Shown: in pieces, positions 11,403 through 58,700 of the stretch
How the letters are laid out: every line of letters begins with the position of its first letter
How positions within the stretch are numbered: the first letter of the stretch is position 1
Origin: Eledone cirrhosa
Taxonomy: Eukaryota
DNA: 64,000 bases
Assembly: GCA_964016885.1 (NCBI GenBank)
Contig: OZ024752.1
Location: 8,308,001 to 8,372,000, forward strand
Direction: 5' to 3'
Program-made: the position numbers and the translations under genes
Notes under the pieces: generated by a model
What the model was told of the DNA's origin: nothing
Seen by the model: only the letters and a program-made list of their open reading frames with translations
The model's database searches: none

Positions 11403-11417
11403 TTTTTTCCTTAAAAG

Positions 11418-12113
11418 ATGTCAGGAGAGACAAAAAAATCATTGTACCACTGTGATGTCTGTGGTAAATCATTCTCTCAAAATGTTCACCTAACTACTCA
11501 CAAACGCATGCATACAGGAGAGAAGCCATATCACTGTGATATCTGTGATAAATCATTCTCTGATGGAAGCCACTTAACTAGACATAAACGTATTCATACA
11601 GGAGAGAAGCCATATCACTGTGATATCTGTGATAAATCATTCTCTGAAAATGGTCATTTAACTAAACACAAACATATTCATACAGGAGAGAAGCCATATC
11701 ACTGTGACATTTGTGGTAAATCATTCTCTGGAAGTAGTAACTTAACTAGACACAAACAGATTCATACAGGAGAGAAGCCCTATCACTGTGATATCTGTGG
11801 TAAATCATTTACCCATGGAAATACCTTGACTAGACACTTGTATATTCATACAGGAGAAAAGCCATACCACTGTGATATATGTGATAAATCATTCTCTCTA
11901 AAGCATCATTTAATTTCTCACAAACGTATACACACAGGAGAAACCCCGTATCATTGTGTTGTGTGTGGTGAATCATTCTCTCATGGAAATACCTTAACTA
12001 TACACAAACGTGTTCATACAGGGGAGAAACCATACCACTGTGATATCTGTGGTAAATCATTCTCCCAAAAAGTTCATTTAACTACACATCTAGGTATTCA
12101 TACAAAACGATAA
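11418..12113 (+). CDS. C2H2 zinc-finger protein, 8 tandem fingers (231 aa)
   Basis: Eight YHCDICGKSF-x5-L-x2-H-x3-H units joined by TGEKP linkers; open frame ending in TAA. Confidence 0.93.
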   Translation: MSGETKKSLYHCDVCGKSFSQNVHLTTHKRMHTGEKPYHCDICDKSFSDGSHLTRHKRIHTGEKPYHCDICDKSFSENGHLTKHKHIHTGEKPYHCDICGKSFSGSSNLTRHKQIHTGEKPYHCDICGKSFTHGNTLTRHLYIHTGEKPYHCDICDKSFSLKHHLISHKRIHTGETPYHCVVCGESFSHGNTLTIHKRVHTGEKPYHCDICGKSFSQKVHLTTHLGIHTKR

Positions 12114-17814: not shown

Positions 17815-19120
17815 ACTATTCTCTATTTCTAATACTATCTTTTATATCTAATACTGTCCTCTATATCTAATACTGTCCTCTATATCTAATACTGTCCCCT
17901 ATATCTAATACTGTCCCCTATATCTAATACTGTCCTCTATATCTAATACTGTCCTCTATATCTAATACTGTCCCCTATATCTAATACTGTCCCCTATATC
18001 TAATACTGTCCCCTATATTTAATACTGTCCCCTATATCTGATACTGCCCCCTATATCTAATACTGTCCCCTATATCTAATACTGTCCCCTATATCTAATA
18101 CTGTCCTCTATATCTAATACTGTCCTCTATATCTAATACTGTCCCCTATATCTAATACTGTCCCCTATATCTAATACTGTCCCCTATATCTAATACTGTC
18201 CTCTATATCTAATACTGTCCCCTATATCTAATACTGTCCCCTATATCTAATACTGTCCCCTATATCTGATACTGCCCCCTATATCTAATACTGTCCCCTA
18301 TATCTAATACTGTCCTCTATATCTAATACTGTCCCCTATATCTAATACTGTCCCCTATATCTAATACTGTCCTTTATATCTAATACTGTCCCCTATATCT
18401 AATATTGTCCCCTATATCTAATACTGTCCCCTTTATCTAATACTGTCCCCTATATCTGATACTGTCCCCTATATCTAATACTGTCCTCTATATCTAATAC
18501 TGTCCCCTATATCTAATACTGTCCCCTATATCTAATACTGTCCTTTATATCTAATACTGTCCCCTATATCTAATACTGTCCTCTATATCTAATACTGTCC
18601 CCTATATCTAATACTGTCCCCTTTATCTAATACTGTCCCCTATATCTGATACTGTCCCCTATATCTAATACTGTCCTCTATATCTAATACTGTCCCCTAT
18701 ATCTGATACTGTCCCCTATATCTGATACTGTCCCCTATATCTAATACTGTCCTCTATATCTAATACTGTCCCCTATATCTAATACTGTCCTCTATATCTA
18801 ATACTGTCCCCTATATCTAATACTGTCCCCTATATATAATACTGTACCCTGTATCTAATACTGTCCCCTATAATACTGTTCTCTATAATACTGTTCCCTA
18901 TATCTAATACTGTACCCTGTATCTAATACTGTCCCCTATATCTAATACTGTCCTCTATATCTAATACTGTCCCCTATATCTAATACTGTCCCCTATATCT
19001 AATACTGTCCCCTATATCTAATACTGTCCCCTATATCTAATACTGTACCCTGTATCTAATACTGTCCCCTATAATACTGTCCCCTATATATAATACTGTC
19101 CCCTATATCTAATACTGTTT
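17815..19120. repeat. 19-bp minisatellite (CTATATCTAATACTGTCCC), expanded version (~68 units), directly upstream of a splice acceptor
   Basis: Same unit, same upstream anchor (AAATTTCCACAGTTGAATCTCAACTTTTTAACT) and same acceptor (TTATTTCAG, AG at 19133-19134) as at ZF1. Confidence 0.95.
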
Positions 19121-19653
19121 CTCTATTATTTCAGAATATCAGATGACATTGACATAACAGAATATATCACTCGAAATCCATCATCAATGTTTATCATCTT
19201 TTAAAGACTAAAGGAACATTTTATACAGAACAGATATAACCCTGTTTATATAAATTTATGGAAGAATTACTGTGAAATATTTCCTCTGAACTGAGATTAA
19301 TAGCAACATTTCTCTACTTCATTGTCTGGAATATGTACAAGATGGTTTTATATTCTAATGAAACTTGGATAGATTTACAAAGGATTTAGCAACATTTTCA
19401 GATATCAACAAAGATCACAGTTCATAGAAATATAACAACAGAAATATTTGTTAGGAATAAACTGCAAATAGAAAATGAACTAAAACATATCTTGATTTAG
19501 TAACATCTACAGATATTGATTGTTGATGGAAATCTACCAGAAGAAATACTTGTTAGGAATAAATTATAAATAAGAAGAAAAATAATGGAAAATGAATCAT
19601 GTGAAAGCCAAGTGAAATGTAAAAAAGAGCCTAAATAGATTGATTTTCTTGAT

Positions 19654-20853
19654 ATGATGGAAGAGACAGGAAAATCTTCATATCGCTGTGATATCTGTAA
19701 AAAGACATTCTCTCATAAAACTAACCTGACTAGACATAAATGTATTCATACAGGAGAAACACCACACTACTTTGATATCTGTGGTAAATCATTCTCTGGA
19801 AATACTGACCTAAATACTCACAAGCATATTCATACTGGAGGAGAGACATCATTTTGCTGTGATATCTGTGGTAAATCCTTCTCTAGAAATCACCATTTAA
19901 CTAGACATAAACACATTCATACAGGAGAGAAACCATATCACTGTGATATCTGTGGTAAATCATTCACCCGAAATGATCACTTAGTTACTCATAAAGGCAT
20001 ACATACAGGGGAGAAATCACATCACTGTGAGATCTGTGGTAAATCATTTTCCAAAAATGATCAATTAACTACTCACAAATGTATTCATACAGGAGAGAAG
20101 CCATATCACTGTGATATTTGTAGTAATTCATTCTCTGAAGTAAATGCCTTAACTGAACACTTATGTACTCATAAAGGAGAGAAACCATATCATTGTGATA
20201 TTTGTGGTAAATCATTCTCTAGAAATGATCAATTAACTAAACACAAATGTATTCATACTGAAGGAAAACCATATCACTGTGATATTTGTGGTCAATCATT
20301 CTCTAAAAATTATCGCTTAACTAGACACAAACACATTCATACAGGAGAGAAACCATATCACTGTGATATCTGTGGTAAATCATTCTCCCGAAATGATCAT
20401 TTAATTAGTCACAAAAGTATACATACAGGAGAGAAATCACATCACTGTGAGATCTGTAGTAAATCATTCTCTGCAGCAAGTCACTTAACTATACACAAAC
20501 GTATTCATACAGGAGAAAAACCACATCATTGTGATGACTGTGGTAAATCATTCTCCGTTGCAAGTCATTTAACTAGACACAAACATATTCATACAGGAGA
20601 GAAACCCTTTCACTGTAATATTTGTGGTAAATCATTCTCTGATGGAAGTCACTTAACCAGACACAAACATATTCATACAAGAGAGAAACCACATCATAGT
20701 GACATATGTGGTTCATCATTCTCTGTACGGAGTCACTTAAGTAAACATAAACGTATTCATACAAAAAAAAAGCCACATAACTGTGATATATGTGGTAAAT
20801 CATTTTCTCAAAAAGGTCAGTTAGCTACCCACGTATATATCCATACACAGTAA
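19654..20853 (+). CDS. C2H2 zinc-finger protein, 14 tandem fingers, two degenerate (399 aa)
   Basis: Fourteen 28-aa units with TGEKP-type linkers. Finger 2 (YFDIC) and finger 13 (HSDIC) have lost the first Cys. Confidence 0.92.
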   Translation: MMEETGKSSYRCDICKKTFSHKTNLTRHKCIHTGETPHYFDICGKSFSGNTDLNTHKHIHTGGETSFCCDICGKSFSRNHHLTRHKHIHTGEKPYHCDICGKSFTRNDHLVTHKGIHTGEKSHHCEICGKSFSKNDQLTTHKCIHTGEKPYHCDICSNSFSEVNALTEHLCTHKGEKPYHCDICGKSFSRNDQLTKHKCIHTEGKPYHCDICGQSFSKNYRLTRHKHIHTGEKPYHCDICGKSFSRNDHLISHKSIHTGEKSHHCEICSKSFSAASHLTIHKRIHTGEKPHHCDDCGKSFSVASHLTRHKHIHTGEKPFHCNICGKSFSDGSHLTRHKHIHTREKPHHSDICGSSFSVRSHLSKHKRIHTKKKPHNCDICGKSFSQKGQLATHVYIHTQ

Positions 20854-21120: not shown

Positions 21121-21741
21121 CGATCAATGTTGAGAGACATAGGAGAGAAGCTCCATGGTAGATCATCATCATCACCGTTTTACGTCCATTCTTCCACGCT
21201 AGCATGGGTCAGACAATGTCTCTTCTATTTTATTGTTACACAACATCTCTGATCTGGCTACTTCATGCCACCTCCACCCAATACATATGTTACCTTACAC
21301 AATAACCTTAAGTTTAATTAACATATTAATCACTTCGTTAGCCTCAGCTCTATGTAAATTTGATATATTAATTACATATGCAAATAAAGTCTGTTTTGGT
21401 TAATTTTATTAATTTTTTTGTTCAATTTTTGCCTAAAACATAGTGAAATATGGCATAAAATTCCATATTTTGAAAATATTTGGTTAAAAATAAAGTGATT
21501 CCTAAAACATTATTTATGGTGAACTCAACCATGACACTAATTAACATTGAGTAGTTAAAACTGTGTGAATGTTGTCGGAATATGATGAAATCAGGTAAAC
21601 TGAGAGAGAGGGGGGGGGGGGGCTCCTATCATGTCAAGTAAGGACAAACAAATAATCAGGGAAAATGATCCAAGCAATGATTCCATGGGAAAACATTTCC
21701 TGTGATCTTTTAAAACAAGAATATCTGGACACCTGAGGTTG

Positions 21742-23036
21742 TATTGACAACATACCTGGGAGACTGGAGAGTTATGTTGACATACGTGGGAGACTGGAGA
21801 GTTATGTTGACATACCTGGGAGACTGGAGAGTTATATTGACATACCTGGGAGACTGGAGAGTTGTATTGACAACATACCTAGGAGACTGGAGAGTTATAT
21901 TAACATACCTGGGAGACTGGAGAGTTGTATTGACAACATACCTAGGAGACTAGAGAGTTATATTAACATACCTGGGAGACTGGAGAGTTATATTAACATA
22001 CCTGGGAGACTGGAGAGTTATATTAACATACCTGGGAGACTGGAGAGTTGTATTGACAACATACCTGGGAGACTGGAGAGTTGTATTAACATACCTGGGA
22101 GACTGGAGAGTTGTATTGACAACATACCTAGGAGACTAGAGAGTTATATTAACATACCTGGGAGACTGGAGAGTTATGTTGACATACCTGGGAGACTGGA
22201 GAGTTATATTAACATACCTGGGAGACTGGAGAGTTATATTGACAATACCTAGGAGGCTGGAGAGTTATATTGACAACATACCTGGGAGACTGGAGTGTTA
22301 TATTAACATACCTGGGAGACTGGAGAGTTATATTAACATACCTGGGAGACTGGAGTGTTATATTAACAACATACCTGGGAGACTGGAGTGTTATATTGAC
22401 ATAGCTGGGAGACTGGAGTGTTATATTAACAACATACCTAGGAGACTGGAGAGTTATATTAACAACATACCTGGGAGACTGGAGTGTTATATTGACATAG
22501 CTGGGAGACTGGAGTGTTATATTGACATAGCTGGGAGACTGGAGTGTTATATTAACAACATACCTGGGAGACTGGAGTGTTATATTGACATAGCTGGGAG
22601 ACTGGAGTGTTATATTAACAACATACCTGGGAGACTGGAGAGTTATGTTGACATACCTGGGAGACTGGAGTGTTATATTAACAACATACCTAGGAGACTG
22701 GAGTGTTATATTAACAACATACCTGGGAGACTGGAGTGTTATATTGACATAGCTGGGAGACTGGAGTGTTATATTGACATAGCTGGGAGACTGGAGTGTT
22801 ATATTAACAACATACCTGGGAGACTGGAGTGTTATATTGACATAGCTGGGAGACTGGAGTGTTATATTAACAACATACCTGGGAGACTGGAGAGTTATGT
22901 TGACATACCTGGGAGACTGGAGTGTTATATTAACAACATACCTAGGAGACTGGAGAGTTATATTGACAAATACCTGGTAGACTGGAGAGTTACATTGATA
23001 ACATACCTGGGAGACTAGAGAGTTATATTGTCAACA
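21742..23036. repeat. 30/33-bp minisatellite (~41 units)
   Basis: ACATACCTGGGAGACTGGAG(A/T)GTTATATT(G/A) with an optional ACA insertion. The 280-aa ORF at 22176 is its periodic translation. Confidence 0.95.
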
Positions 23037-26965: not shown

Positions 26966-29900
26966 ATCATCATCATCATCATCATCGTTTAACGTCCATG
27001 TTCCACGCTTGCATGGGTTTGGACGGGAGTTTTCCCACTTGAGGCAAGAGTGGTTGTTTTGCTCGCATAGGACTGTCTGGCGGGTTTTCTACAGTTGGAT
27101 GCCCTTCCTAACACCAACGACATTTACAGTGTGGTGCTGGGAGGGTTTTACCGTGTTGCCTACACGGCCACATTACAGCGTGGACTGTCTGGCGTGTTTT
27201 CTACAGCTGGATGCCCTTCCTAACACCAACCACATTTACAGTGTGGGGCTGGGAGGTTTTTACCGTGTTGCCTACACGGCCACATTACAGCGTGGACTGT
27301 GTGTTTTTTTGTCGTGACTCCTACACGATCTCATTTGTTTCGGCCTGGATGTTGTGGCACCAACATAACTTTACATTGAAAGGGGTGGTGTGGTGTGGAG
27401 GGGGGCGGGGGGGTATTTTGTTAGAGATGCCTACTGACTGTAGTAGGTTTTACTTTGTATTTAGGTAAGGCGGGTCTTCTCTATTACTGAGTACCGCCAA
27501 AGGTCTCGGTCCAGTGACATTGTCTTGGAGAGGTGTAAGTGTGTGAGGTCGGAATTTATCAGCTCGTCCCAGGTTTTTCTGGGTCTGCCTACTCCGTGGC
27601 TACCGTCTATCTTTATTGCCCTGCACTTTGCTATAGAGCTGTCGTCTTTCATGCGCATCACGTGACCATACCAACGTAGCCTTCTCTCGAGTAAACAACA
27701 TCTGATCCCTCTTATTTCTAATTTTTTCCTTAGTTCGTTTATGCTTTGCCGTTCCTCTCTAGTCTGCGTATATCCTCTGCACACAATGCCCAGGTCTCAC
27801 TGCCATGCAACATTGCTGTTCGTATGCAGGCATCATACAACCTGCCTTTCATTTTTAGGGAGAACCCTTTAGCGGCTAATAGTGGTATAAGCTCTCTGAA
27901 CTTTTTCCATCCAGTTCTGACTCTAGCTACTGTACTTTCAGAGCACCCTCCCCCACTGCTGATTTTGTCACCCAGGTAACGGAAGCTGTCCACTATTTCT
28001 ATAGAACCCTCTGCGCAATTGAAAGAGCTAGTATTTTGTGGGCACTTGCTGCTACTTATTGCACCAGAGCACCGGCCACATGTAAAATCTGTGTTCTTAG
28101 TTAGCTTACCTGTGATCCCACTACATCTTTTATGCACCCATACTTTGCATTTGGGACATAAAATGGAGTTTCTACCTACGCCTTTCCTACACACTGAGCA
28201 TGGCCATTTCCCGGAAGGGACCGGCGCCTTATTTTCTTTCCTAAAAACTAGAACTTTAGTCTTAGCCAGGTTAATTTTAAGGCCTTTTGATTCTAGGCCG
28301 TGCTTCCATGTTTGGAATTTCTTCTCTAGCTCGGCCATTGATTCAGCTATGAGCGTTAGGTCATCTGCGTATAGGAGTTCCCATGGGCAGCCGGTCTTGA
28401 ACTCCTCTGTTATAGCCTGAAGGGCAATAATAAATAGTAGGGGGCTAAGAACAGAGCCCTGATGGACACCAACTTTTACGCTAAACTCTTCACTATATTC
28501 GTTGTTAATTCTAACCTTGCTCACTGTTTCTTTATACATGGCTTGTATAGCTCTCACAAGCCATTCGTCAACACCTAGTTTTCTAAGAGCCCACCAGATA
28601 ATGGAACGGGGTACTCTATCGAAGGCTTTCTCCAAGTCGACAAAGGCTAAGTATAGGGGTTTACTTTTAGCTAGGTACTTCTCCTGTAGTTGTCGTACAA
28701 TGAAAAGAGCGTCTGTGGTACTTTTGCCTGACACAAACCCGAACTGCATTTCATCTAGATCAATTCTCTCTCTGATTAGTTGCACTATTACTTTTTCCGT
28801 GACCTTCATGACCTGGTCGATTAATTTAATGCCTCTATAGTTACTCCTATCTAGGGCGTCTCCTTTACCCTTGTAACAGTTAATGATGATGCTGCTACGC
28901 CAGTCCTTCCGAACAACCCCATTCTGTATGACTTGGTTTACTATCCGGGTGACCATGGTGTGTCCCACCGTTCCAGAGGCCTTCAGCATCTCAGCAACTA
29001 TTTCCGAAGGCCCAGCCGCCTTACCCGTCTTCATATCTTTGATTGCCTTACTTATTATACTACCTTCAACTAACACTGCTGGTCCCTCTATTGGATCGAT
29101 CTGGGGAAGACTATCCTTCTCCCATTTATTCTCCTCACTTAGTAGCCTCTCGTAGTGACACTTCCAAGCGACCTTCTTATCAGCGTCAGTGATGGCGAGT
29201 ACGCCATCATCATTTAGTACACACTTCTCCCCAACAATATCACGGTTTTCCTTGACACATTGCCTAGCAATCCTGAACACCTCACATTTTTGGTCCTCGC
29301 GTTGTAGAACATGCTTGAACTTTCTTTCCTCTGCTTCCCTTCTTGCGAAGTACACTTGTCTCCTAGCCACTTGATAGTCTTCTCTACTTCCCCCATCCCG
29401 CCATACTTTCCAAGCCTGCTTTTTGGCCTTAATCGACTCCTCCACCACCATGTTACTCTCCTCCTGCCTATAGGCCTGCTCCGGCCACAGACTTCGTCTG
29501 CCGCCATCAGCAGGTTTGCTTTCAGGAATTCCCACTGTCCCTCTATATTGTCCGACTCTAAATGCTCTTCCTTACTGTCGAAAGCATCAAGTAATATGCT
29601 TTGAAATTTATTTCTGGCTGTGGGGTCCTTTAGCTTCCATATTTTCCTCCTGAGGATAGTCCTCTTCTGCTGTCGAGTACGTCTCGTCCTGACTATGAGG
29701 TCGCTAATTATCAGTCTATGTTGGGAGGTGCATTCTTCATGGGGGAGGGATTTAGTGTTTACAACAGTCACTCTGTCACGTCTTCTGGTAAGGATATAAT
29801 CTACCTGGCTGGTATGTTCCCCTGATCTGTAGGTGATCAAGTGATTGTCTCGTTTTTTGAAGTTAGTGTTACAGATTGTTAGGTTATTTGCGTCACAGAA

Positions 29901-30110
29901 TTCCAGGATTCTGGAGCCTTCCTCATTTCTAGTACCAAACCCATAGCCTCCATGGATTTCATCATAGTCGTCACAATGTTGTCCAACGTGACCATTTAGG
30001 TCGCCAGCAATAATTATATAGTCACTGTCGGTTATTTGGGAGGTAGTGAGCATCAGCGTCTCATAGAAAGTGTCTTTTATAGCGCCAGGCAGTCCGGATT
30101 GGGGCGCGTA
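26966..30110 (-). mobile_element. 5'-truncated RTE-clade LINE (APE endonuclease plus reverse transcriptase, two frameshifts) in SDHAF2 intron 2, antisense to the host gene
   Basis: APE motifs YAPQ, IIAGDLNGHVG, SQVDYIL and SQHRLI; RT motifs NYRGIKL, QFGF, DLEKAFD, GVHQGSVLSP and LLYADD; C-terminal RRLRWYGHVMR...GRPRKTW. A ~500-bp 3' UTR ends in a (GAT)n tail. Confidence 0.95.
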
Positions 30111-30199
30111 TAGTTTATATTAACTTTATCTTCTCAGCACTTTGTAGAAGTCCCAGAGATCATCTATGTATACATGTTGCAATGTTTGTATTTTACCAG

Positions 30200-32375: not shown

Positions 32376-33004
32376 CCTTTATTTAAATACCAAATCTGAT
32401 TTTGAATAAAATGTATTTTCAATGAAACTACATTTGTTATGTTAATTTATGTATTTCAGTCTGCCCCACTGCATGGTACCTTGGGCAAGTATTTCAGTCT
32501 ATAGCCTTCGGTCCACCAATATTTTGTAAGACCGAAGCCCATTTTAAAGTGTTCATATTTAAACCAAAAGTTCTTCGCCCACTTACTCCTGTGAGGGTGA
32601 GTCCTCAAACACTCCCTCCAGTGGGTCCTGTCAGAAGCAACTGTCTCCAACTGATCCGGCTAGATCCCCAGCCAAGCTCATGGATATTATTCAACCATCT
32701 TGCTCTGGGTCATAATTTTATGAAGAAATTTTTCTTAAGTGATGTTCCAACATAATTATGAAAAAGTTATTTCACTAAATACCTCTAAATTTATTATTTC
32801 AAACAAAGAAACATGTAACATAAAAAGTATCAAAGAAAAAAAAAACTTTTTTTTTAATGAAATAAAGACTTTTATTCTATCATTACAAAAATAAAAAAAA
32901 AAGAGGCACAAATAGCGGGAAGTGAAAATGCTTTCTTTTTTAGGGGACAGGAATTGCAGGGAATCCTGCTTTTGTATTTGTACATTGATATAAAATATTT
33001 TTAT

Positions 33005-33166
33005 TTATTTACTAACAGCAAAACCAACTTGATCAGATTTAGCATCGAATATTGTGTAATATTTTCCAAGAAAAACATCTCCCAATATCCACAGTGGTCC
33101 TGCTGGGGGAGGAATGTTAATTCCCATAAAGCCACTAATACACATGGTCTGTCCAGCTTGAGATAC
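33005..33166 (-). CDS. CTSD: Cathepsin D alternative terminal exon 9b (distal)
   Basis: TTATCTCGCAG acceptor, phase 0; [53 protein letters not shown]; intact 162-nt frame; minus-strand AATAAA at 32871-32876. Confidence 0.88.
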
Positions 33167-33517
33167 CTGCGAGATAATGTCCAGTCATTATTATTTACTA
33201 ATATACATCTTATATATATATTACAGCATCCATAGAATAGATAACAACAGAAAATAGAAAACGAAAGGTATTTTTAAAAAGAGGAGACAATAAATTAAAC
33301 AATTAGTATATTAGTAGGGATAGAATGTGATTTTAAAAAGAAGGGAGAATACATTAATTATCAATAGTTCATTAATCAAAGATTGAATGTGTTATTGGAT
33401 ATTTGTATTTAAGAAATGATAACTTTCATAGACACCCAAAAGATGCATGCAGAAAGAAAACAAAACCAAAAGTAAAATTTCAAAGCAACAGAGGAGAAGA
33501 ACCGTATTTCCTGGTGT

Positions 33518-33838
33518 TTAAACCTTTAGCATTTAAATCAACTGTAACCGGTCACTCATACTGATGTTAAGGTATTGTTCTCAAAATAAATAATATCAAA
33601 ATCTCAGATTCAATATTATGCGAGATATGTGAGAGAAAACCTTTACCATGAAAATACAATAGTAAATATAGAGTAATGTAAATGCTATGTGAGATATTAT
33701 GTGAGGTAAAGCCTTTACCATGAAAATACAATAGTAAATATAGAGTAATGTAAATGCTAAAGGGTTGAGGTGTGAGGTAAAGCCTTTACTATGAAAATAC
33801 AATAGTAAATATAGAGTAATGTAAATGCTAACGGGTTG
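33518..33838. mobile_element. piggyBac-type MITE with an internally triplicated right-hand segment
   Basis: CCTTTAGCATTTAAA start; three tandem copies of CCTTTACCATGAAAATACAATAGTAAATATAGAGTAATGTAAATGCTA. Confidence 0.75.
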
Positions 33839-34093
33839 AGAAACTCTGCACCACTATTTCAGTTACTAAACTTTGAAAAAAAAAATAAAGCATATTTTAA
33901 AAAAATAAAAATATTAAACAAAAACCAACAACATTGACCAAGCTTAGAAATACGGTATTTAAATCCTTACTGCTATGTAAGTATTTGAATATTCCACAAA
34001 AGTCATCCAGATTTATTTCTGAAATGGCCTGAATAGATCTTTGGAAGATCCATTATATGAAGCAAGCTTGAGCTAGACATTAATAAAAAAACA

Positions 34094-34350
34094 TTGTATA
34101 TTCACAACAGGAGTTTAACTTTTTAATATGTGCTTTGATTAGGTCTTAAAATATACACAAAACTGAGGAGGAAATACTGAACTGAAATTAATACATCATC
34201 TACCATCACATTAAATGATGAAATGGGATGTATTAAATTAGTTTGAGCTCAGTATTTCCCTCAGTTTCATTGATATTTTAATACCTAATCAAAGTACATA
34301 TTAAATCAAATCTTATACCTGAAAGTTAAATTCCAGTTGCGTAAATACAA
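34094..34350. repeat. ~260-bp imperfect hairpin (foldback) between the two cathepsin D terminal exons
   Basis: Nested complementary arms: AATATGTGCTTTGATTAGGT / ACCTAATCAAAGTACATATT, AACTGAGGAGGAAATACTGA / TCAGTATTTCCCTCAGTT, TAATACATC / GATGTATTA. Confidence 0.85.
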
Positions 34351-34484
34351 AGTTAAACACAAATATATATATATATATATGACACGCACATATAACATGT
34401 CGGTGTCTGTATATAACACATTCCAGTGTGTGTGAATATACATAACGTGTGTGTGTGTGTGTGTATGTGTGTGTGTGAGTGTGT

Positions 34485-34515
<31 letters not shown>

Positions 34516-34736
34516 GATATCAAAGTTATGAATAAAAATATAGAGTTTGAAATATTTATGAAACTGAAGAAAGACTTAAAATAAAAGTATCATGCAGTAT
34601 TAAAATGAGAATAACTGGTCATGTAGCTACAAGAGAAACCACAGAACTGAGAAGCTTCAACAGAGGAACAAAAAGAGAAACTAAAAGATTATCCCACTTA
34701 GAGGTGCAGAAAATAATATTTAACAGATCTTTCCTT

Positions 34737-34901
34737 TCAGTTCTTTGTCTTTGCAAAGCCCACCCTGTTATTCTCGAAATCAAATTCAGTATAGTAGGGT
34801 CCTAGAAATACGTCCCCAAGAATCCAAAGAGGTCCAATAGGTGGTGGAATATCAATCCCCATAAAACCACTTAGACACATTGAATGTCCCATTGCTTTAA
34901 T
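34737..34901 (-). CDS. CTSD: Cathepsin D terminal exon 9a (proximal)
   Basis: ATATTTCAG acceptor, phase 0; [54 protein letters not shown]; minus-strand AATAAA at 34012-34017. Confidence 0.93.
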
Positions 34902-35703: not shown

Positions 35704-35901
35704 ATATATTACACACAAACATATACATGGTGTCTCAAAACTACATATTTAAACACTTATTAAAGATAAATATATATTTGACTTTCAAATACGTAAATGG
35801 TTTTGGGGCACCGCACGCGCACACGTGTGTGTGTGTGTGTGTGTGTGTGGATATATATATATATATATATATAATAAAGCTATTTTGTAATCTTTACTCA
35901 C

Positions 35902-36000
35902 CTTAAGTACATAATCTGTGGGAGAAAGTGGGAAACTCTTTCCACCTAATGTGAAAGTTACTGTTGGCATATTAGGAATACTTCCGCAATCAACTATATA
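35902..36000 (-). CDS. CTSD: Cathepsin D exon 8
   Basis: TTCCAG acceptor; YIVDCGSIPNMPTVTFTLGGKSFPLSPTDYVLK; AAG|GTGAGT donor; 99 nt, phase 0/0. Confidence 0.95.
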
Positions 36001-38957: not shown

Positions 38958-39099
38958 CTCGCCGCCAGGTAAAGGTTTCGCTCCAATGGCTTCGTTGAGG
39001 TCAACAATCTCATCAGTGGGGCCAGCAAGCAGAGAAGTACCAGTATCAGCAATAGCTGCACAGCCCTTTGCACAGAATGTTTTTTTATTCACAGATACA
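38958..39099 (-). CDS. CTSD: Cathepsin D exon 7 (second catalytic DTG)
   Basis: TTGTAG acceptor; (S)[47 protein letters not shown]; GAG|GTACTA donor; 142 nt. Confidence 0.95.
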
Positions 39100-40409: not shown

Positions 40410-40532
40410 CTGTCCATTTTAATCTGCCAGTAACCCTTCTTAACAACAGGTAGATAGGTCACGTTACCAGTATAGTGTTTAGGATCAGAACCTCCTAAAA
40501 TCAACTCACCACCTTCCTTGGCATCTGGGTCA
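40410..40532 (-). CDS. CTSD: Cathepsin D exon 6
   Basis: TTTAG acceptor; (R)[40 protein letters not shown]; AG|GTATGT donor; 123 nt. Confidence 0.95.
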
Positions 40533-41037: not shown

Positions 41038-41237
41038 CGGTTGATATAGAAAGAAAAGACAGGACTATCAACAATTTTCTGAGCCACCATTTGATAGAAA
41101 ACTGGTTTAACTCCATCAACAGAAATAGTATCATATGCCATTCCAAGAATTCCATCAAATTTAGCAACAACAAACACAATTCCTGGCTCTTGTATCGCCT
41201 CAGCAAATGTTTGACCAACCACAGTTGCTGAGCCAAC
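41038..41237 (-). CDS. CTSD: Cathepsin D exon 5
   Basis: TTTTGTAG acceptor; [35 protein letters not shown]...VFSFYIN; CG|GTAAGT donor; 200 nt. Confidence 0.95.
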
Positions 41238-42583: not shown

Positions 42584-42702
42584 TCTTACTGTGTCTGTAC
42601 TCAAGAAACCTGATAAACTACCACTTCCATATCTTATATTAAATTCAGTTCCGTTTGCCTTATATGTAGAAGATGTTGTATCGTCGTATTTGTTATGAGT
42701 CA
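42584..42702 (-). CDS. CTSD: Cathepsin D exon 4 (flap region)
   Basis: TTTTTCAG acceptor; (L)[39 protein letters not shown] with an NGT sequon; AGA|GTAAGT donor; 119 nt. Confidence 0.95.
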
Positions 42703-43714: not shown

Positions 43715-44285
43715 CATCATCATCATCGTTTAACGTCCATTTTTCACGCTAGCATGGGTTACATGGATTGACGCATTAGAGACAATTTGGATGAGGTGAC
43801 TGTCATGCTCATATAGGACTGTTTCTGGTTAGATTTCTATAGCTGAATGCACTTCCTAACACCAACCACATTTACAGTGTGGGCTGGGTGCCTTTTGTCA
43901 TGCCACCTACACAACCACTTTACAGTGTGGGCTGGGTGTCTTTTGTCATGACACCTACAGGACCACTTTACAGTGTGGACTGGGTGCTTTTTGTCGTGAC
44001 ACCTACACAACCACTTTACAGTGTGGGCTGGGTGCTTTTTATCATGACACCTACACAACTACTTTACAGTGTGGACTGGGTGCTTTTTGTCATGACACCA
44101 ACACTGTCACTTTACAGTGTGGGCTGGGCACTTTTTACCATGACACCAACACTATCACTTTACAGTGTGGGCTGGGCACTTTTTGTCGTGACACCTACAT
44201 GACCACTTAACAGTGCGAACTGGGTGCTTTTTACCATGACACCAACACTCACTTTACAGTGTGGGCTGGGCACTTTTTGTCATGT
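43715..44285 (-). mobile_element. RTE 3' tail carrying ~9 tandem copies of the 49-bp unit
   Basis: (CAT)n-CGTTTAACGTCC tail followed by repeats of CCACTTTACAGTGTGG(G/A)CTGGGTGCTTTTTGTCATGACACCTACAC. Confidence 0.85.
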
Positions 44286-44351: not shown

Positions 44352-44549
<198 letters not shown>

Positions 44550-46195: not shown

Positions 46196-46334
46196 ATCAA
46201 GATAATTGGAGAGAGGCTCTGGGACTGGACCACCATATTTAGAGGTAAGGGGGTGGTAATATTTCAACATATCCCTGGTCGTACCCTTACTTAACAGGTC
46301 ATTGTAGACACTGGTCATTTTATGTAATTTAATT
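46196..46334 (-). CDS. CTSD: Cathepsin D exon 2 (propeptide and start of the mature chain)
   Basis: TTCCAG acceptor; (R)IKLHKMTSVYNDLLSKGTTRDMLKYYHPLTSKYGGPVPEPLSNYLD; GAT|GTAAGG donor; 139 nt. It starts in phase 2, so an upstream signal-peptide exon is required. Confidence 0.92.
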
Positions 46335-49735: not shown

Positions 49736-52700
49736 CATCTTCCACACTAACAGGGGTTGGGTAAGTTTGTCTTACTTGAGCCAAGTTTGGTCGGGCGACC
49801 GTGTCTTCCTCATATAGAACTGTTTCTGGCTGGATGCCCTTCCTAGCGCCAACCACATTTACAGTGTGGACTGGGAGCCTTTTTACTGTGTCTCCTACAT
49901 AACCACTTTACAGTGTGGACTGGGAGCCTTTTTACCGTGTCTCCTACATAACCACTTTACAGTGTGCACTGGGAGCCTTTTTACCGTGTCTCCTACATGA
50001 CCACTTTACAGTGTGGACTGGGAGCCTTTTTACTGTGTCTCCTACATGACCACTTTACAGTGTGGACTGGGAGCCTTTTTACTGTGTCTCCTACATGACC
50101 ACTTTACAGTGTGGACTGGGAGCCTTTTTACTGTGTCTCCTACACGACCACTTTACAGTGTGGACTGGGAGCCTTTTTACCGTGTCTCCTACACGACCAC
50201 TTTACAGTGTGCACTGGGAGCCTTTTTACTGTGTCTCCTACATGACCACATTTACAGTGTGCACTGGGAGCCTTTTTACTGTGTCTCCTACATGACCACT
50301 TTACAGTGTGGACTGGGAGCCTTTTTACTGTGTCTCCTACATGACCACATTTACAGTGTGCACTGGGAGCCTTTTTACTGTGTCTCCTACATAACCACTT
50401 TACAGTGTGGACTGGGAGCCTTTTTACTGTGTCTCCTACACGACCACTTTACAGTGTGCACTGGGAGCCTTTTTACCGTGTCTCCTACACGACCACTTTA
50501 CAGTGTGGACTGGGAGCCTTTTTACCGTGTCTCCTACATAACCACTTTACAGTGTGGACTGGGAGCCTTTTTACTGTGTCTCCTACACGACCACTTTACA
50601 GTGTGCACTGGGAGCCTGTTTACCGTGTCTCCTACACAACCACTTTACAGTGTGGACTGGGAGCCTTTTTACTGTGTCTCCTACATAACCACTTTACAGT
50701 GTGCACTGGGAGCCTTTTTACCGTGTCTCCTACATAACCACTTTACAGTGTGGACTGGGAGCCTTTTTACTGTGTCTCCTACACGACCACTTTACAGTGT
50801 GCACTGGGAGCCTGTTTACCGTGTCTCCTACACAACCACTTTACAGTGTGGACTGGGAGCCTTTTTACTGTGTCTCCTACATGACCACTTTACAGTGTGC
50901 ACTGGGAGCCTTTTTACTGTGTCTCCTACATAACCACATTTACAGTGTGGACTGGCAGCCTTTTTACTGTGTCTCCTACACGACCACTTTACAGTGTGCA
51001 CTGGGAGCCTTTTTACCGTGTCTCCTACATAACCACTTTACAGTGTGGACTGGGAGCCTTTTTACCGTGTCTCCTACACGACCACTTTACAGTGTGGACT
51101 GGGAGCCTTTTTTACTGTGTCTCCTACACGACCACTTTACAGTGTGGACTGGGAGCCTTTTTACTGTGTCTCCTACATAACCACTTTACAGTGTGGACTG
51201 GGAGCCTTTTTACTGTGTCTCCTACACAACCACTTTACAGTGTGGACTGGGAGCCTTTTTACTGTGTCTCCTACATAACCACTTTACAGTGTGCACTGGG
51301 AGCCTTTTTACCGTGTCTCCTACACGACCACTTTACAGTGTGGACTGGGAGCCTTTTTACCGTGTCTCCTACATGACCACTTTACAGTGTGCACTGGGAG
51401 CCTTTTTACTGTGTCTCCTACATGACCACTTTACAGTGTGCACTGGGAGCCTTTTTACTGTGTCTCCTACATAACCACATTTACAGTGTGGACTGGGAGC
51501 CTTTTTACTGTGTCTCCTACACGACCACTTTACAGTGTGCACTGGGAGCCTTTTTACCGTGTCTCCTACATAACCACTTTACAGTGTGGACTGGGAGCCT
51601 TTTTACCGTGTCTCCTACATGACCACTTTACAGTGTGCACTGGGAGCCTTTTTACTGTGTCTCCTACATGACCACTTTACAGTGTGCACTGGGAGCCTTT
51701 TTACTGTGTCTCCTACATAACCACATTTACAGTGTGGACTGGGAGCCTTTTTACTGTGTCTCCTACACGACCACTTTACAGTGTGGACTGGGAGCCTTTT
51801 TACTGTGTCTCCTACATAACCACTTTACAGTGTGGACTGGGAGCCTTTTTACTGTGTCTCCTACATAACCACTTTACAGTGTGGACTGGGAGCCTTTTTA
51901 CTGTGTCTCCTACACGACCACTTTACAGTGTGGACTGGGAGCCTTTTTACTGTGTCTCCTACACGACCACTTTACAGTGTGGACTGGGAGCCTTTTTACT
52001 GTGTCTCCTACACGACCACTTTACAGTGTGGACTGGGAGCCTTTTTACTGTGTCTCCTACACGACCACTTTACAGTGTGCACTGGGAGCCTTTTTACCGT
52101 GTCTCCTACATAACCACTTTACAGTGTGGACTGGGAGCCTTTTTACTGTGTCTCCTACACGACCACTTTACAGTGTGCACTGGGAGCCTTTTTACCGTGT
52201 CTCCTACATAACCACATTTACAGTGTGGACTGGGAGCCTTTTTACTGTGTCTCCTACACGACCACTTTACAGTGTGGACTGGGAGCCTTTTTACTGTGTC
52301 TCCTACACGACCACTTTATAGTGTGGACTGGGAGCCTTTTTACTGTGTCTCCTACACGACCACTTTACAGTGTGGACTGGGAGCCTTTTTACTGTGTCTC
52401 CTACACGACCACTTTACAGTGTGGACTGGGAGCCTTTTTACTGTGTCTCCTACACGACCACTTTACAGTGTGGACTGGGAGCCTTTTTACTGTGTCTCCT
52501 ACACGACCACTTTACAGTGTGGACTGGGAGCCTTTTTACTGTGTCTCCTACATAACCACTTTACAGTATGCACTGGGAGCCTTTTTACCGTGTCTCCTAC
52601 ATAACCACTTTACAGTATGCACTGGGAGCCTTTTTACCATGTCTCCTACACGACCACTTTACAGTGTGGACTGGGAGCCTTTTTACCGTGTCTCCTACAT

Positions 52701-55700
52701 AACCACTTTACAGTGTGGACTGGGAGCCTTTTTACTGTGTCTCCTACATAACCACTTTACAGTATGGACTGGGAGCCTTTTTACCGTGTCTCCTACATAA
52801 CCACTTTACAGTGTGCACTGGGAGCCTTTTTACCATGTCTCCTACATAACCACTTTACAGTGTGGACTGGGAGCCTTTTTACTGTGTCTCCTACACGACC
52901 ACTTTACAGTGTGCACTGGGAGCCTGTTTACCGTGTCTCCTACACAACCACTTTACAGTGTGGACTGGGAGCCTTTTTACTGTGTCTCCTACATAACCAC
53001 TTTACAGGGTGCACTGGGAGCCTTTTTACCGTGTCTCCTACATAACCACTTTACAGTGTGGACTGGGAGCCTTTTTACTGTGTCTCCTACACGACCACTT
53101 TACAGTGTGCACTGGGAGCCTGTTTACCGTGTCTCCTACACAACCACTTTACAGTGTGGACTAGGAGCCTTTTTACTGTGTCTCCTACATGACCACTTTA
53201 CAGTGTGCACTGGGAGCCTTTTTACTGTGTCTCCTACATAACCACATTTACAGTGTGGACTGGGAGCCTTTTTACTGTGTCTCCTACACGACCACTTTAC
53301 AGTGTGCACTGGGAGCCTTTTTACCGTGTCTCCTACATAACCACTTTACAGTGTGGACTGGGAGCCTTTTTACCGTGTCTCCTACATGACCACTTTACAG
53401 TGTGCACTGGGAGCCTTTTTACTGTGTCTCCTACATGACCACTTTACAGTGTGCACTGGGAGCCTTTTTACTGTGTCTCCTACATAACCACATTTACAGT
53501 GTGGACTGGGAGCCTTTTTACTGTGTCTCCTACACGACCACTTTACAGTGTGGACTGGGAGCCTTTTTACTGTGTCTCCTACACAACCACTTTACAGTGT
53601 GGACTGGGAGCCTTTTTACTGTGTCTCCTACATAACCACTTTACAGTGTGCACTGGGAGCCTTTTTACCGTGTCTCCTACACGACCACTTTACAGTGTGG
53701 ACTGGGAGCCTTTTTACCGTGTCTCCTACATGACCACTTTACAGTGTGCACTGGGAGCCTTTTTACTGTGTCTCCTACATGACCACTTTACAGTGTGCAC
53801 TGGGAGCCTTTTTACTGTGTCTCCTACATAACCACATTTACAGTGTGGACTGGGAGCCTTTTTACTGTGTCTCCTACACGACCACTTTACAGTGTGCACT
53901 GGGAGCCTTTTTACCGTGTCTCCTACATAACCACTTTACAGTGTGGACTGGGAGCCTTTTTACCGTGTCTCCTACATGACCACTTTACAGTGTGCACTGG
54001 GAGCCTTTTTACTGTGTCTCCTACATGACCACTTTACAGTGTGCACTGGGAGCCTTTTTACTGTGTCTCCTACATAACCACATTTACAGTGTGGACTGGG
54101 AGCCTTTTTACTGTGTCTCCTACACGACCACTTTACAGTGTGGACTGGGAGCCTTTTTACTGTGTCTCCTACATAACCACTTTACAGTGTGGACTGGGAG
54201 CCTTTTTACTGTGTCTCCTACATAACCACTTTACAGTGTGGACTGGGAGCCTTTTTACTGTGTCTCCTACACGACCACTTTACAGTGTGGACTGGGAGCC
54301 TTTTTACTGTGTCTCCTACACGACCACTTTACAGTGTGGACTGGGAGCCTTTTTACTGTGTCTCCTACACGACCACTTTACAGTGTGCACTGGGAGCCTT
54401 TTTACCGTGTCTCCTACATAACCACTTTACAGTGTGGACTGGGAGCCTTTTTACTGTGTCTCCTACACGACCACTTTACAGTGTGCACTGGGAGCCTTTT
54501 TACCGTGTCTCCTACATAACCACATTTACAGTGTGGACTGGGAGCCTTTTTACTGTGTCTCCTACACGACCACTTTACAGTGTGGACTGGGAGCCTTTTT
54601 ACTGTGTCTCCTACACGACCACTTTATAGTGTGGACTGGGAGCCTTTTTACTGTGTCTCCTACACGACCACTTTACAGTGTGGACTGGGAGCCTTTTTAC
54701 TGTGTCTCCTACACGACCACTTTACAGTGTGGACTGGGAGCCTTTTTACTGTGTCTCCTACACGACCACTTTACAGTGTGGACTGGGAGCCTTTTTACTG
54801 TGTCTCCTACACGACCACTTTACAGTGTGGACTGGGAGCCTTTTTACTGTGTCTCCTACATAACCACTTTACAGTATGCACTGGGAGCCTTTTTACCGTG
54901 TCTCCTACATAACCACTTTACAGTATGCACTGGGAGCCTTTTTACCATGTCTCCTACACGACCACTTTACAGTGTGGACTGGGAGCCTTTTTACCGTGTC
55001 TCCTACATAACCACTTTACAGTGTGGACTGGGAGCCTTTTTACTGTGTCTCCTACATAACCACTTTACAGTATGGACTGGGAGCCTTTTTACTGTGTCTC
55101 CTACATAACCACTTTACAGTGTGCACTGGGAGCCTTTTTACCATGTCTCCTACATAACCACTTTACAGTGTGGACTGGGAGCCTTTTTACTGTGTCTCCT
55201 ACACGACCACTTTACAGTGTGCACTGGGAGCCTGTTTACCGTGTCTCCTACACAACCACTTTACAGTGTGGACTGGGAGCCTTTTTACTGTGTCTCCTAC
55301 ATAACCACTTTACAGTGTGCACTGGGAGCCTTTTTACCGTGTCTCCTACATAACCACTTTACAGTGTGGACTGGGAGCCTTTTTACTGTGTCTCCTACAC
55401 GACCACTTTACAGTGTGCACTGGGAGCCTGTTTACCGTGTCTCCTACACAACCACTTTACAGTGTGGACTGGGAGCCTTTTTACTGTGTCTCCTACATGA
55501 CCACTTTACAGTGTGCACTGGGAGCCTTTTTACTGTGTCTCCTACATAACCACATTTACAGTGTGGACTGGGAGCCTTTTTACTGTGTCTCCTACACGAC
55601 CACTTTACAGTGTGCACTGGGAGCCTTTTTACCGTGTCTCCTACATAACCACTTTACAGTGTGGACTGGGAGCCTTTTTACCGTGTCTCCTACATGACCA

Positions 55701-58700
55701 CTTTACAGTGTGCACTGGGAGCCTTTTTACTGTGTCTCCTACATGACCACTTTACAGTGTGCACTGGGAGCCTTTTTACTGTGTCTCCTACATAACCACA
55801 TTTACAGTGTGGACTGGGAGCCTTTTTACTGTGTCTCCTACACGACCACTTCACAGTGTGGACTGGGAGCCTTTTTACTGTGTCTCCTACATAACCACTT
55901 TACAGTGTGGACTGGGAGCCTTTTTACTGTGTCTCCTACACAACCACTTTACAGTGTGGACTGGGAGCCTTTTTACTGTGTCTCCTACATAACCACTTTA
56001 CAGTGTGCACTGGGAGCCTTTTTACTGTGTCTCCTACACAACCACTTTACAGTGTGGACTGGGAGCCTTTTTACTGTGTCTCCTACATAACCACTTTACA
56101 GTGTGCACTGGGAGCCTTTTTACCGTGTCTCCTACACGACCACTTTACAGTGTGGACTGGGAGCCTTTTTACCGTGTCTCCTACATGACCACTTTACAGT
56201 GTGCACTGGGAGCCTTTTTACTGTGTCTCCTACATGACCACTTTACAGTGTGCACTGGGAGCCTTTTTACTGTGTCTCCTACATAACCACATTTACAGTG
56301 TGGACTGGGAGCCTTTTTACTGTGTCTCCTACACGACCACTTTACAGTGTGCACTGGGAGCCTTTTTACCGTGTCTCCTACATAACCACTTTACAGTGTG
56401 GACTGGGAGCCTTTTTACCGTGTCTCCTACATGACCACTTTACAGTGTGCACTGGGAGCCTTTTTACTGTGTCTCCTACATGACCACTTTACAGTGTGCA
56501 CTGGGAGCCTTTTTACTGTGTCTCCTACATAACCACATTTACAGTGTGGACTGGGAGCCTTTTTACTGTGTCTCCTACACGACCACTTTACAGTGTGGAC
56601 TGGGAGCCTTTTTACTGTGTCTCCTACATAACCACTTTACAGTGTGGACTGGGAGCCTTTTTACTGTGTCTCCTACATAACCACTTTACAGTGTGGACTG
56701 GGAGCCTTTTTACTGTGTCTCCTACACGACCACTTTACAGTGTGGACTGGGAGCCTTTTTACTGTGTCTCCTACACGACCACTTTACAGTGTGGACTGGG
56801 AGCCTTTTTACTGTGTCTCCTACACGACCACTTTACAGTGTGGACTGGGAGCCTTTTTACTGTGTCTCCTACACGACCACTTTACAGTGTGCACTGGGAG
56901 CCTTTTTACCGTGTCTCCTACATAACCACTTTACAGTGTGGACTGGGAGCCTTTTTACTGTGTCTCCTACACGACCACTTTACAGTGTGCACTGGGAGCC
57001 TTTTTACCGTGTCTCCTACATAACCACATTTACAGTGTGGACTGGGAGCCTTTTTACTGTGTCTCCTACACGACCACTTTACAGTGTGGACTGGGAGCCT
57101 TTTTACTGTGTCTCCTACACGACCACTTTATAGTGTGGACTGGGAGCCTTTTTACTGTGTCTCCTACACGACCACTTTACAGTGTGGACTGGGAGCCTTT
57201 TTACTGTGTCTCCTACACGACCACTTTACAGTGTGGACTGGGAGCCTTTTTACTGTGTCTCCTACACGACCACTTTACAGTGTGGACTGGGAGCCTTTTT
57301 ACTGTGTCTCCTACACGACCACTTTACAGTGTGGACTGGGAGCCTTTTTACTGTGTCTCCTACATAACTACTTTACAGTATGCACTGGGAGCCTTTTTAC
57401 CGTGTCTCCTACATAACCACTTTACAGTATGCACTGGGAGCCTTTTTACCATGTCTCCTACACGACCACTTTACAGTGTGGACTGGGAGCCTTTTTACCG
57501 TGTCTCCTACATAACCACTTTACAGTGTGGACTGGGAGCCTTTTTACTGTGTCTCCTACATAACCACTTTACAGTATGGACTGGGAGCCTTTTTACCGTG
57601 TCTCCTACATAACCACTTTACAGTGTGCACTGGGAGCCTTTTTACCATGTCTCCTACATAACCACTTTACAGTGTGGACTGGGAGCCTTTTTACTGTGTC
57701 TCCTACACGACCACTTTACAGTGTGCACTGGGAGCCTGTTTACCGTGTCTCCTACACAACCACTTTACAGTGTGGACTGGGAGCCTTTTTACTGTGTCTC
57801 CTACATAACCACTTTACAGTGTGCACTGGGAGCCTTTTTACCGTGTCTCCTACATAACCACTTTACAGTGTGGACTGGGAGCCTTTTTACTGTGTCTCCT
57901 ACACGACCACTTTACAGTGTGCACTGGGAGCCTTTTTACCGTGTCTCCTACATGACCACTTTACAGTGTGCACTGGGAGCCTTTTTACTGTGTCTCCTAC
58001 ATGACCACTTTACAGTGTGCACTGGGAGCCTTTTTACTGTGTCTCCTACATAACCACATTTACAGTGTGGACTGGGAGCCTTTTTACTGTGTCTCCTACA
58101 CGACCACTTTACAGTGTGGACTGGGAGCCTTTTTACTGTGTCTCCTACATAACCACTTTACAGTGTGGACTGGGAGCCTTTTTACTGTGTCTCCTACACA
58201 ACCACTTTACAGTGTGGACTGGGAGCCTTTTTACTGTGTCTCCTACATAACCACTTTACAGTGTGCACTGGGAGCCTTTTTACCGTGTCTCCTACACGAC
58301 CACTTTACAGTGTGGACTGGGAGCCTTTTTACCGTGTCTCCTACATGACCACTTTACAGTGTGCACTGGGAGCCTTTTTACTGTGTCTCCTACATGACCA
58401 CTTTACAGTGTGCACTGGGAGCCTTTTTACTGTGTCTCCTACATAACCACATTTACAGTGTGGACTGGGAGCCTTTTTACTGTGTCTCCTACACGACCAC
58501 TTTACAGTGTGCACTGGGAGCCTTTTTACCGTGTCTCCTACATAACCACTTTACAGTGTGGACTGGGAGCCTTTTTACCGTGTCTCCTACATGACCACTT
58601 TACAGTGTGCACTGGGAGCCTTTTTACTGTGTCTCCTACATGACCACTTTACAGTGTGCACTGGGAGCCTTTTTACTGTGTCTCCTACATAACCACATTT

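What the first reader, a model, noticed from the sequence alone, without database searches (positions are those of the whole stretch)
33005..34901. Cathepsin D has two intact, diverged tandem copies of its last exon, suggesting alternative C-terminal isoforms
Seen: downstream of exon 8 (phase 0) lie two complete terminal exons, both missed by the ORF track. 9a (34737-34901) reads [54 protein letters not shown] and 9b (33005-33166) reads [53 protein letters not shown]. They are 35/53 aa identical with no indels or internal stops and many synonymous differences. Each has a CAG acceptor, its own stop and a downstream AATAAA. No duplicate of exons 2-8 lies between them, so this is exon duplication rather than a second gene. 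Known: this segment carries a disulfide Cys and the cathepsin D polyproline loop that borders the primed substrate subsites. The copies differ exactly there (DIPPPIGP vs NIPPPAGP), and 9b begins like vertebrate CTSD (VSQAG). Inference: both exons are under purifying selection and give proteases with different specificity, pH behaviour or trafficking, for example lysosomal versus digestive-gland forms. I do not know of such a system being described, but I cannot search.
Basis: partly seen in the sequence, partly recalled or inferred. Interest (0 to 1): 0.85.

Follow-up and report, generated by a model that had tools for sequence, protein, structure and literature searches.

The report
Mollusc cathepsin D swaps final exons
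An octopod's single cathepsin D gene carries two intact versions of its last exon, and gene records of many other molluscs show the same pair, so one gene likely makes two protease variants that are predicted, not shown, to differ in what they cut or where they act.

Summary
Exons 9a (34901-34737) and 9b (33166-33005) follow exon 8 in phase 0. They share 35/53 aa, with synonymous sites saturated (pS 0.90, pN 0.25). The searches found one cathepsin D gene in the genome. Database isoforms that are identical up to this junction and then swap the last exon occur in 25 named molluscs (cephalopods, bivalves, limpet, abalones, chiton) and the nemertean Lineus. Most are gene models, and I chose the clusters partly for their isoform names. 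A squid-like pair on intron-free 1.2-kb contigs supports both splices. Junction use in this animal is unshown. The pair predates the octopus-squid split. One mollusc-wide origin is plausible but not proven (AU p 0.04 against a clean a/b split). The polyproline loop holds only 2 of 18 differences; the hairpin at the exon start and the C-terminal strands hold the rest. It is a tandem-exon C-terminal substitution, a known splicing class. RefSeq annotates it, but four targeted literature searches found no description. Functional differences are inferred.

The parts
46196..46334 (-). Cathepsin D exon 2 (propeptide). Exon 1 (signal peptide, 62 nt) lies outside the window at G000:C12:8389843-8389782 (L084), about 35 kb upstream.
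   Evidence: exons 1-8 give 1008 nt, 336 aa, no stop
44372..44495 (-). Exon 3 (first catalytic DTG)
42584..42702 (-). Exon 4 (flap)
41038..41237 (-). Exon 5; single copy in the genome search
40410..40532 (-). Exon 6
38958..39099 (-). Exon 7 (second catalytic DTG)
35902..36000 (-). Exon 8, shared; phase-0 GT donor at 35901
34737..34901 (-). Terminal exon 9a (proximal; x-x-M-G class), 54 aa + TGA, gives a 390-aa isoform; T-rich acceptor (12 T in -25..-5)
34012..34017 (-). Only AATAAA between 9a and 9b; candidate 9a poly(A) signal, not above chance
33005..33166 (-). Terminal exon 9b (distal; x-Q-A-G class), 53 aa + TAA, gives a 389-aa isoform; poorest pyrimidine tract of the 9 acceptors scored (7 T in -25..-5, others 12-20)
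32871..32876 (-). AATAAA followed by a U-rich stretch; best candidate poly(A) signal after 9b, possibly shared by both isoforms

Best explanation
The single cathepsin D gene has two homologous, intact last exons, and the exon 8 donor likely splices to one or the other, giving two complete proteases that share residues 1-336 and are predicted to differ in substrate preference or handling. Shown: the anatomy, selection on both exons, and paired isoforms in relatives. Inferred: use of both junctions in this animal (about 0.9). Choosing 9a puts a stop before 9b, so the choice is exclusive at protein level. The 9a transcript either ends at its own weak signal or carries 9b in a long 3' UTR to a shared site (about even). 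The swapped piece is structural, not a tail. It supplies the second strand and tip of a hairpin that spans the junction, a disulfide Cys, the strand with position 287 (pepsin numbering), the polyproline loop and the last sheet strands. I commit to fine tuning of the non-primed (S2-S4) side and nearby surface, through the hairpin tip (M in 9a, small or polar in 9b) and, outside cephalopods, position 287 (I versus smaller). The likely purpose is a bulk-digestion form and a housekeeping form from a single-copy gene. Which exon serves which role is unknown.
For: Anatomy and selection. Single gene. Pairs identical to the junction and then different in 25 named molluscs and Lineus. Spliced evidence: P0142/P0399 share their first 338 aa and sit on contigs of 1233 and 1265 nt, too short for introns. 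Independent genomic copy: L011 has exon 8 plus two tandem last exons, each with an AG acceptor. In cephalopods the a-type and b-type exons fall in separate parts of the tree. Window 9b shares 42-44/53 aa with b-types and 33-34 with a-types; 9a shares 38-42 with a-types and 35-39 with b-types. The same order (a first) appears in fused models of Mya, Magallana and Mytilus. Position 4 differs in 19 of 23 pairs. Position 14 (287) is I in 17 of 18 non-cephalopod a-exons and differs from b in 14 of 18. AlphaFold models of both O. bimaculoides isoforms have nearly the same strands over the swapped part, with position 4-5 at the hairpin turn. PMC12865886 section 3.1 calls the aligned SmCD1 Met336-Gly337 'S2 subsite residues' (alignment).
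Against: No reads from this animal were examined. Most relatives' pairs are gene models whose RNA support I did not see, and I picked clusters for 'isoform' names or several members. In this species and the 4 other cephalopod pairs position 287 is M in both exons, and positions 289, 291, 300 and 303 are unchanged here. PMC12865886 also says Met336-Gly337 are unresolved in the crystal, and its S2 label rests on an older paper I did not see. My subsite assignments are recalled: two paper searches for them found nothing usable. 9a evolves faster than 9b in all 6 lineages compared, which fits relaxed as well as specialised function. Biomphalaria (5 of 5 cluster members) shows one type only, so the second exon is dispensable in some molluscs.
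Confidence: 0.6

Rival explanations
1. The switch mainly changes sorting, stability or zymogen activation, not catalytic specificity. The a-exon carries a C-terminal extension and different surface residues.
For: a-exons are 81-95 aa against 54-60 aa for b in 8 of 22 database pairs (5 clam-like bivalves, 3 scallops), and no b-exon exceeds 60 aa. 9 of 18 differences here lie in positions 35-52. SmCD1, which starts this segment with the same M-G turn, has a disordered C-terminal extension (PMC12865886 section 3.1). Recalled, not checked: human cathepsin D's mannose-6-phosphate recognition patch lies at and just before this junction.
Against: Cephalopod, oyster, abalone and chiton a-exons have no extension (53-54 aa), yet the pair is kept.
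Confidence: 0.3
2. The two exons are kept for their different 3' UTRs or poly(A) regulation, and the protein differences are nearly neutral under shared structural constraint.
For: Catalytic-side residues are identical here. Within Mytilus and Haliotis, a and b cluster by lineage, so they may be interchangeable and homogenised.
Against: Class-specific residues persist across distant lineages: Q at position 3 in 23 of 23 b-exons (partly by my labelling) and I287 in a-exons. a-a plus b-b similarity exceeds the crossed pairing in 29 of 36 lineage comparisons with the labelling columns left out; these comparisons are not independent.
Confidence: 0.15
3. One exon is a silent or rarely used relic in this species, or the second isoform in databases is a prediction artefact.
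For: No transcript data for this animal. 9b has a weak acceptor. Some predictors produced implausible models that fuse 9a and 9b (P0121, P0381, P0246).
Against: Saturated synonymous divergence with intact frames; conservation of each class across cephalopods; an intron-free squid-like pair.
Confidence: 0.07
4. On origin only: the last exon was duplicated independently in several lineages (cephalopods, bivalve orders, abalones, chitons, nemerteans) instead of once before the molluscan radiation.
For: A tree holding all a-exons together is borderline rejected (p-AU 0.040; 32 rows, 14 close relatives left out). Cephalopod a+b form one side of a branch, support 68. Mytilus a+b (98/90) and Haliotis a+b group by lineage. 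Mytilus and Lineus have three exons, so repeat duplication does happen. PMC9741552 reports frequent convergence of such events (passages).
Against: Same junction, same order and shared class residues across four mollusc classes. Gene conversion between neighbours would also give lineage clustering. 54 columns resolve little.
Confidence: 0.35

Closest known systems
Tandem exon duplication-derived C-terminal substitutions (e.g. PRKCB, GNAO1, tropomyosin 3' exons; PMC8373072, PMC9741552)
   Same: Adjacent homologous 3' coding exons, isoforms identical except for the swapped homologous region, long conservation. 77 of 236 human events are C-terminal (passages).
   Different: The word 'cathepsin' does not occur in either main text (supplements not read). 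PMC9741552 says such regions tend to avoid ligand-binding residues, whereas this exon forms part of a protease's C-terminal lobe beside the cleft.
RefSeq/GenBank isoforms X1/X2 of molluscan lysosomal aspartic protease (e.g. XP_014771655/6, XP_029636147/8, XP_011440854/5, XP_064634460-2)
   Same: The same event: identical to the exon 8 junction, then a swapped last exon.
   Different: Automatic annotation only; no description of the pattern found in the searched library.
Lysosomal versus digestive cathepsin D-like proteases of muscomorph flies (PMC4826915, passages)
   Same: A functional split linked to the polyproline-loop region.
   Different: There it is separate genes and loss of the loop. 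Here it is one gene, and both exons keep the loop.
Schistosoma mansoni SmCD1 (PDB 9snt, 9rxi; PMC12865886)
   Same: Top structural match (TM 0.83), with an M-G hairpin turn and a C-terminal extension like the a-class.
   Different: No alternative last exon is mentioned in the passages read ('splice': 0 hits).

Membership tests
Cathepsin D (peptidase A1) | Signal peptide and propeptide | tested here: met
   Hydrophobic 20-aa exon 1 in L084, and exon 2 aligns with octopod propeptides
Cathepsin D (peptidase A1) | Two catalytic DTG motifs in an open frame | tested here: met
   DTG at residues 88 and 274 of the 336-aa core; 75-77% identity to Octopus and Argonauta proteins
Cathepsin D (peptidase A1) | Polyproline loop DxPxPx(G/A)P (motif from PMC4826915) | tested here: met
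   9a fits exactly; 9b keeps the loop with N in place of the first D
Cathepsin D (peptidase A1) | Pepsin fold with either last exon | tested here: met
   Tested on O. bimaculoides orthologues, not the window's own protein: pLDDT 81.9 and 80.2, nearly the same strands. Only the a-type model was searched; its top matches are cathepsins D
Cathepsin D (peptidase A1) | Acid, pepstatin-sensitive proteolysis | not testable with these tools
   needs an assay
Tandem exon duplication-derived C-terminal substitution | Adjacent homologous terminal coding exons in the same phase, both intact | tested here: met
Tandem exon duplication-derived C-terminal substitution | Isoforms identical except for the swapped region | tested here: met
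   Met in relatives; not shown by reads in this animal
Tandem exon duplication-derived C-terminal substitution | Alternative poly(A) use | tested here: inconclusive
   The 9a signal is at chance level; L011 has AATAAA only after the second exon
Tandem exon duplication-derived C-terminal substitution | Tissue-specific use | not tested
   no expression data obtained
Tandem gene duplicate or pseudogene remnant | Second copy of upstream exons, or a disabled frame | tested here: not met

The most novel reading that the evidence does not exclude
A single duplication of the cathepsin D last exon before molluscs and nemerteans parted (over 500 million years by recalled dates) created a splice switch. 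It rebuilds one wall of an aspartic protease's substrate cleft and adds or removes a C-terminal tail, giving these animals digestive and housekeeping cathepsins D from one gene. Some snails would later have dropped one exon or replaced the switch with separate genes.
Probability: 0.3. Interest if true: 0.72.

Novelty: new member of a known kind. Interest (0 to 1): 0.52.

Why it matters
Molluscan studies, including aquaculture and biomarker work, may treat cathepsin D as one enzyme; primers or antibodies to the 3' end would see only one form. Whether cephalopods use cathepsin D in digestion is disputed: PMC12032550 reports finding none in Octopus maya (passage). This gene gives two defined candidates that can be told apart by junction reads. 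For protease biology it offers natural pairs, identical over about 86% of their length, that swap only the C-terminal 53 residues across many species. These pairs directly test what the hairpin tip, position 287 and the tail contribute.

Tried and rejected
Run search for RNA: no RNA holder listed (4 runs of unknown kind, 1 study); taken as evidence neither way. No reads were laid on the locus, so junction use and 3' ends in this animal stay open. Exon 1 was not inside the window and was found 17.8 kb beyond it. A second cathepsin D gene was rejected: the one other PF00026 match (C21, L086) is a more distant aspartic protease (BACE-like by recall). Metagenome scan: 1 of 80 loci kept had two exon copies (L011). 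Many of the others are transcripts, intronless at this point or short downstream, so they do not test absence. Comparing L011 with held proteins did not settle its animal group. A formal dN/dS was not computable because dS is saturated. Tree of 65 exons: too few columns, and it groups octopod b with vertebrates (98/97), which I read as convergence. Window a+b as a clade was not rejected (p-AU 0.178). One search printed nothing through a pattern slip, fixed. Literature: 10 searches. Four aimed at this system and one at the mussel cathepsin survey gave no description, judged from listings and abstract starts. Subsite searches gave nothing usable. Earlier scan findings: none.

Full report
Observation. 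On the minus strand, exon 8 (36000-35902) ends in phase 0 at a GT donor. Two complete terminal exons follow, 9a (34901-34737) and 9b (33166-33005), each with a CAG acceptor and a stop. They share 35 of 53 residues and 95 of 159 bases with no indel. pN is 0.25, pS is 0.90 (saturated), and 21 of 32 identical degenerate residues use different codons. Both hit human cathepsin D first in the PDB. Old divergence with intact frames indicates purifying selection on both.

Gene. Exons 2-8 lie at 46334-35902. Exon 1 lies beyond the window at G000:C12:8389843. Together they give a 336-aa core with two DTG motifs and isoforms of 390 and 389 aa, 75-77% identical to Octopus and Argonauta proteins, so the animal is an octopod. 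No upstream exon is duplicated in the window. In the 3.0-Gb genome exon 5 has one match, exon 9 two, and Pfam Asp finds this gene plus one distant protease exon (counts are lower bounds).

Relatives. O. sinensis and O. bimaculoides each have RefSeq isoforms X1 and X2 that are identical up to the exon 8 junction and then carry a 9a-type or a 9b-type end. A profile search and two cluster look-ups extended this: 10 of 10 clusters and 9 of 10 held such pairs. I chose those clusters for isoform names or several members, so these counts are not a frequency. In all, 25 named molluscs show the swap: 3 cephalopods, 17 bivalves, Patella vulgata, 3 Haliotis and the chiton Liolophura. The nemertean Lineus longissimus also shows it. 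Lineus and three Mytilus species have three versions. Patella caerulea was left out because its two forms carry different locus tags. Against universality: all 5 Biomphalaria members are one type, and the RefSeq entries for Physella, Littorina, Babylonia (two separate proteins) and the nemertean Tubulanus carry no isoform suffix. Most records are gene models whose RNA support I did not see. Better evidence is the unnamed squid-like pair P0142/P0399, identical for 338 aa and held on contigs of 1233 and 1265 nt, which leave no room for introns. An unnamed genomic contig, L011, shows exon 8 followed by two last exons 383 nt apart (1 of 80 loci).

Splicing. Either acceptor joins exon 8 in frame, and 9a's stop makes the choice exclusive at protein level. 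9a has an ordinary T-rich acceptor and 9b the poorest of nine. The AATAAA after 9a is at chance level, whereas 9b is followed by a cluster with a U-rich downstream stretch; in L011 the only AATAAA follows the second exon. The 9a message may therefore carry 9b in its 3' UTR, which makes this possibly an alternative-acceptor switch with a shared end, not two independent poly(A) sites. No reads from this animal were examined.

Age. In a 65-row tree the cephalopod a-exons group together (87/49; 97/88 without the window's) and apart from the cephalopod b-exons, which fall in two subgroups. Window 9b shares 42-44 residues with b-types and 33-34 with a-types. The pair therefore predates the octopus-squid split. 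Deeper, the evidence is mixed. For one origin: the same junction everywhere; the same order in fused models of Mya, Magallana and Mytilus; matched pairing beats crossed pairing in 29 of 36 lineage comparisons without the five columns I used for labelling (7 go against, comparisons not independent); I at position 14 in 17 of 18 non-cephalopod a-exons. Against: holding all a-exons together is borderline rejected (p-AU 0.040; 32 rows, 14 close relatives dropped), and Mytilus and Haliotis exons cluster by lineage. One old duplication with later gene conversion fits both sets (about 0.55-0.6); repeated duplication remains open.

What the swap changes. Models of both O. bimaculoides isoforms fold with nearly the same strands over the swapped part (pLDDT 81.9 and 80.2), and the a-model matches cathepsins D best. 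The exon supplies a hairpin spanning the junction with positions 4-5 at the turn, then a Cys, a strand, the polyproline loop and the final strands. Here 7 differences fall in positions 1-10, 2 in the loop and 9 in positions 35-52. Across 23 pairs the most variable columns are 4 (19 pairs), 35 (18), 3 (16), 51 (15), 6 and 14 (14 each), while columns 23-30 never differ. Position 14 equals Met307 of primate cathepsin D and pepsin 287; its role in S2/S4 is recalled, not confirmed by my searches. It differs in 14 of 18 non-cephalopod pairs but in 0 of 5 cephalopod pairs. PMC12865886 (section 3.1 read) labels SmCD1 Met336-Gly337, which align to positions 4-5, as S2 residues and reports them unresolved. 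In 8 of 22 database pairs the a-exon adds a tail of about 20-40 residues. The best reading is fine tuning of specificity and handling; it is inferred, and weaker for octopods than for bivalves.

Known context. This is a tandem exon duplication-derived C-terminal substitution, a class with 77 human examples (PMC8373072 and PMC9741552, passages; neither main text mentions cathepsin; supplements not read). Fly digestive cathepsins D lose the polyproline loop in separate genes (PMC4826915, passages). PMC12032550 (passages) found no cathepsin D in O. maya and says nothing on this switch. PMC8777295, PMC4398375 and PMC10481938 (passages) added nothing decisive. Searches found no description. The library lacks most subscription journals, and Romero et al. 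2022, seen only as a citation, may mention mussel isoforms.

Verdict. Real, under selection, conserved at least across coleoid cephalopods and present in four mollusc classes and a nemertean. It is annotated automatically but apparently undescribed. It is a new member of a known splicing class, notable because the swapped exon is part of a protease's folded core. Interest 0.52.

Noticed in passing
window 49852-60234: A 49-bp satellite of about 211 copies (10.4 kb, 94% matches) inside cathepsin D intron 1; a related 48-bp unit at 43863-44284.
   Followed up: no
window 11415-12113 and 19639-20853 (+): Two C2H2 zinc-finger array reading frames; the second was confirmed by Pfam.
   Followed up: partly
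window 27739-30119 (-): Two overlapping long frames that look like the endonuclease and reverse transcriptase of a LINE retrotransposon (identified by eye, not searched).
   Followed up: no
window 1-4980, 17823-19118, 21738-23030, 62419-64000: Further long tandem arrays of 42, 19, 30-63 and 18-28 bp period.
   Followed up: no
P0281 versus P0370 (Mercenaria mercenaria X2, X3): These isoforms share the last exon but diverge from residue 304, about where exon 8 begins, so exon 8 may also be duplicated in this clam.
   Followed up: no
P0351 (Sepiella japonica cDNA): Its last exon has an a-like start and a b-like end, possibly a third exon or a converted one.
   Followed up: no
window 34763 (-), inside 9a: An in-frame GT at the R-V codon boundary matches the point where database models of Mya, Magallana and Mytilus fuse the first and second last exons; for Mya the join lies further downstream. 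Probably a prediction artefact, but untested.
   Followed up: partly
P0283 and P0332 (Babylonia areolata): Two separate cathepsin D proteins on different contigs, one with a b-like and one with an a-like last exon; gene duplication may have replaced the splice switch.
   Followed up: partly
L086:343-987 (G000:C21): An exon of a second, distant aspartic protease (PF00026), BACE-like by recall.
   Followed up: partly
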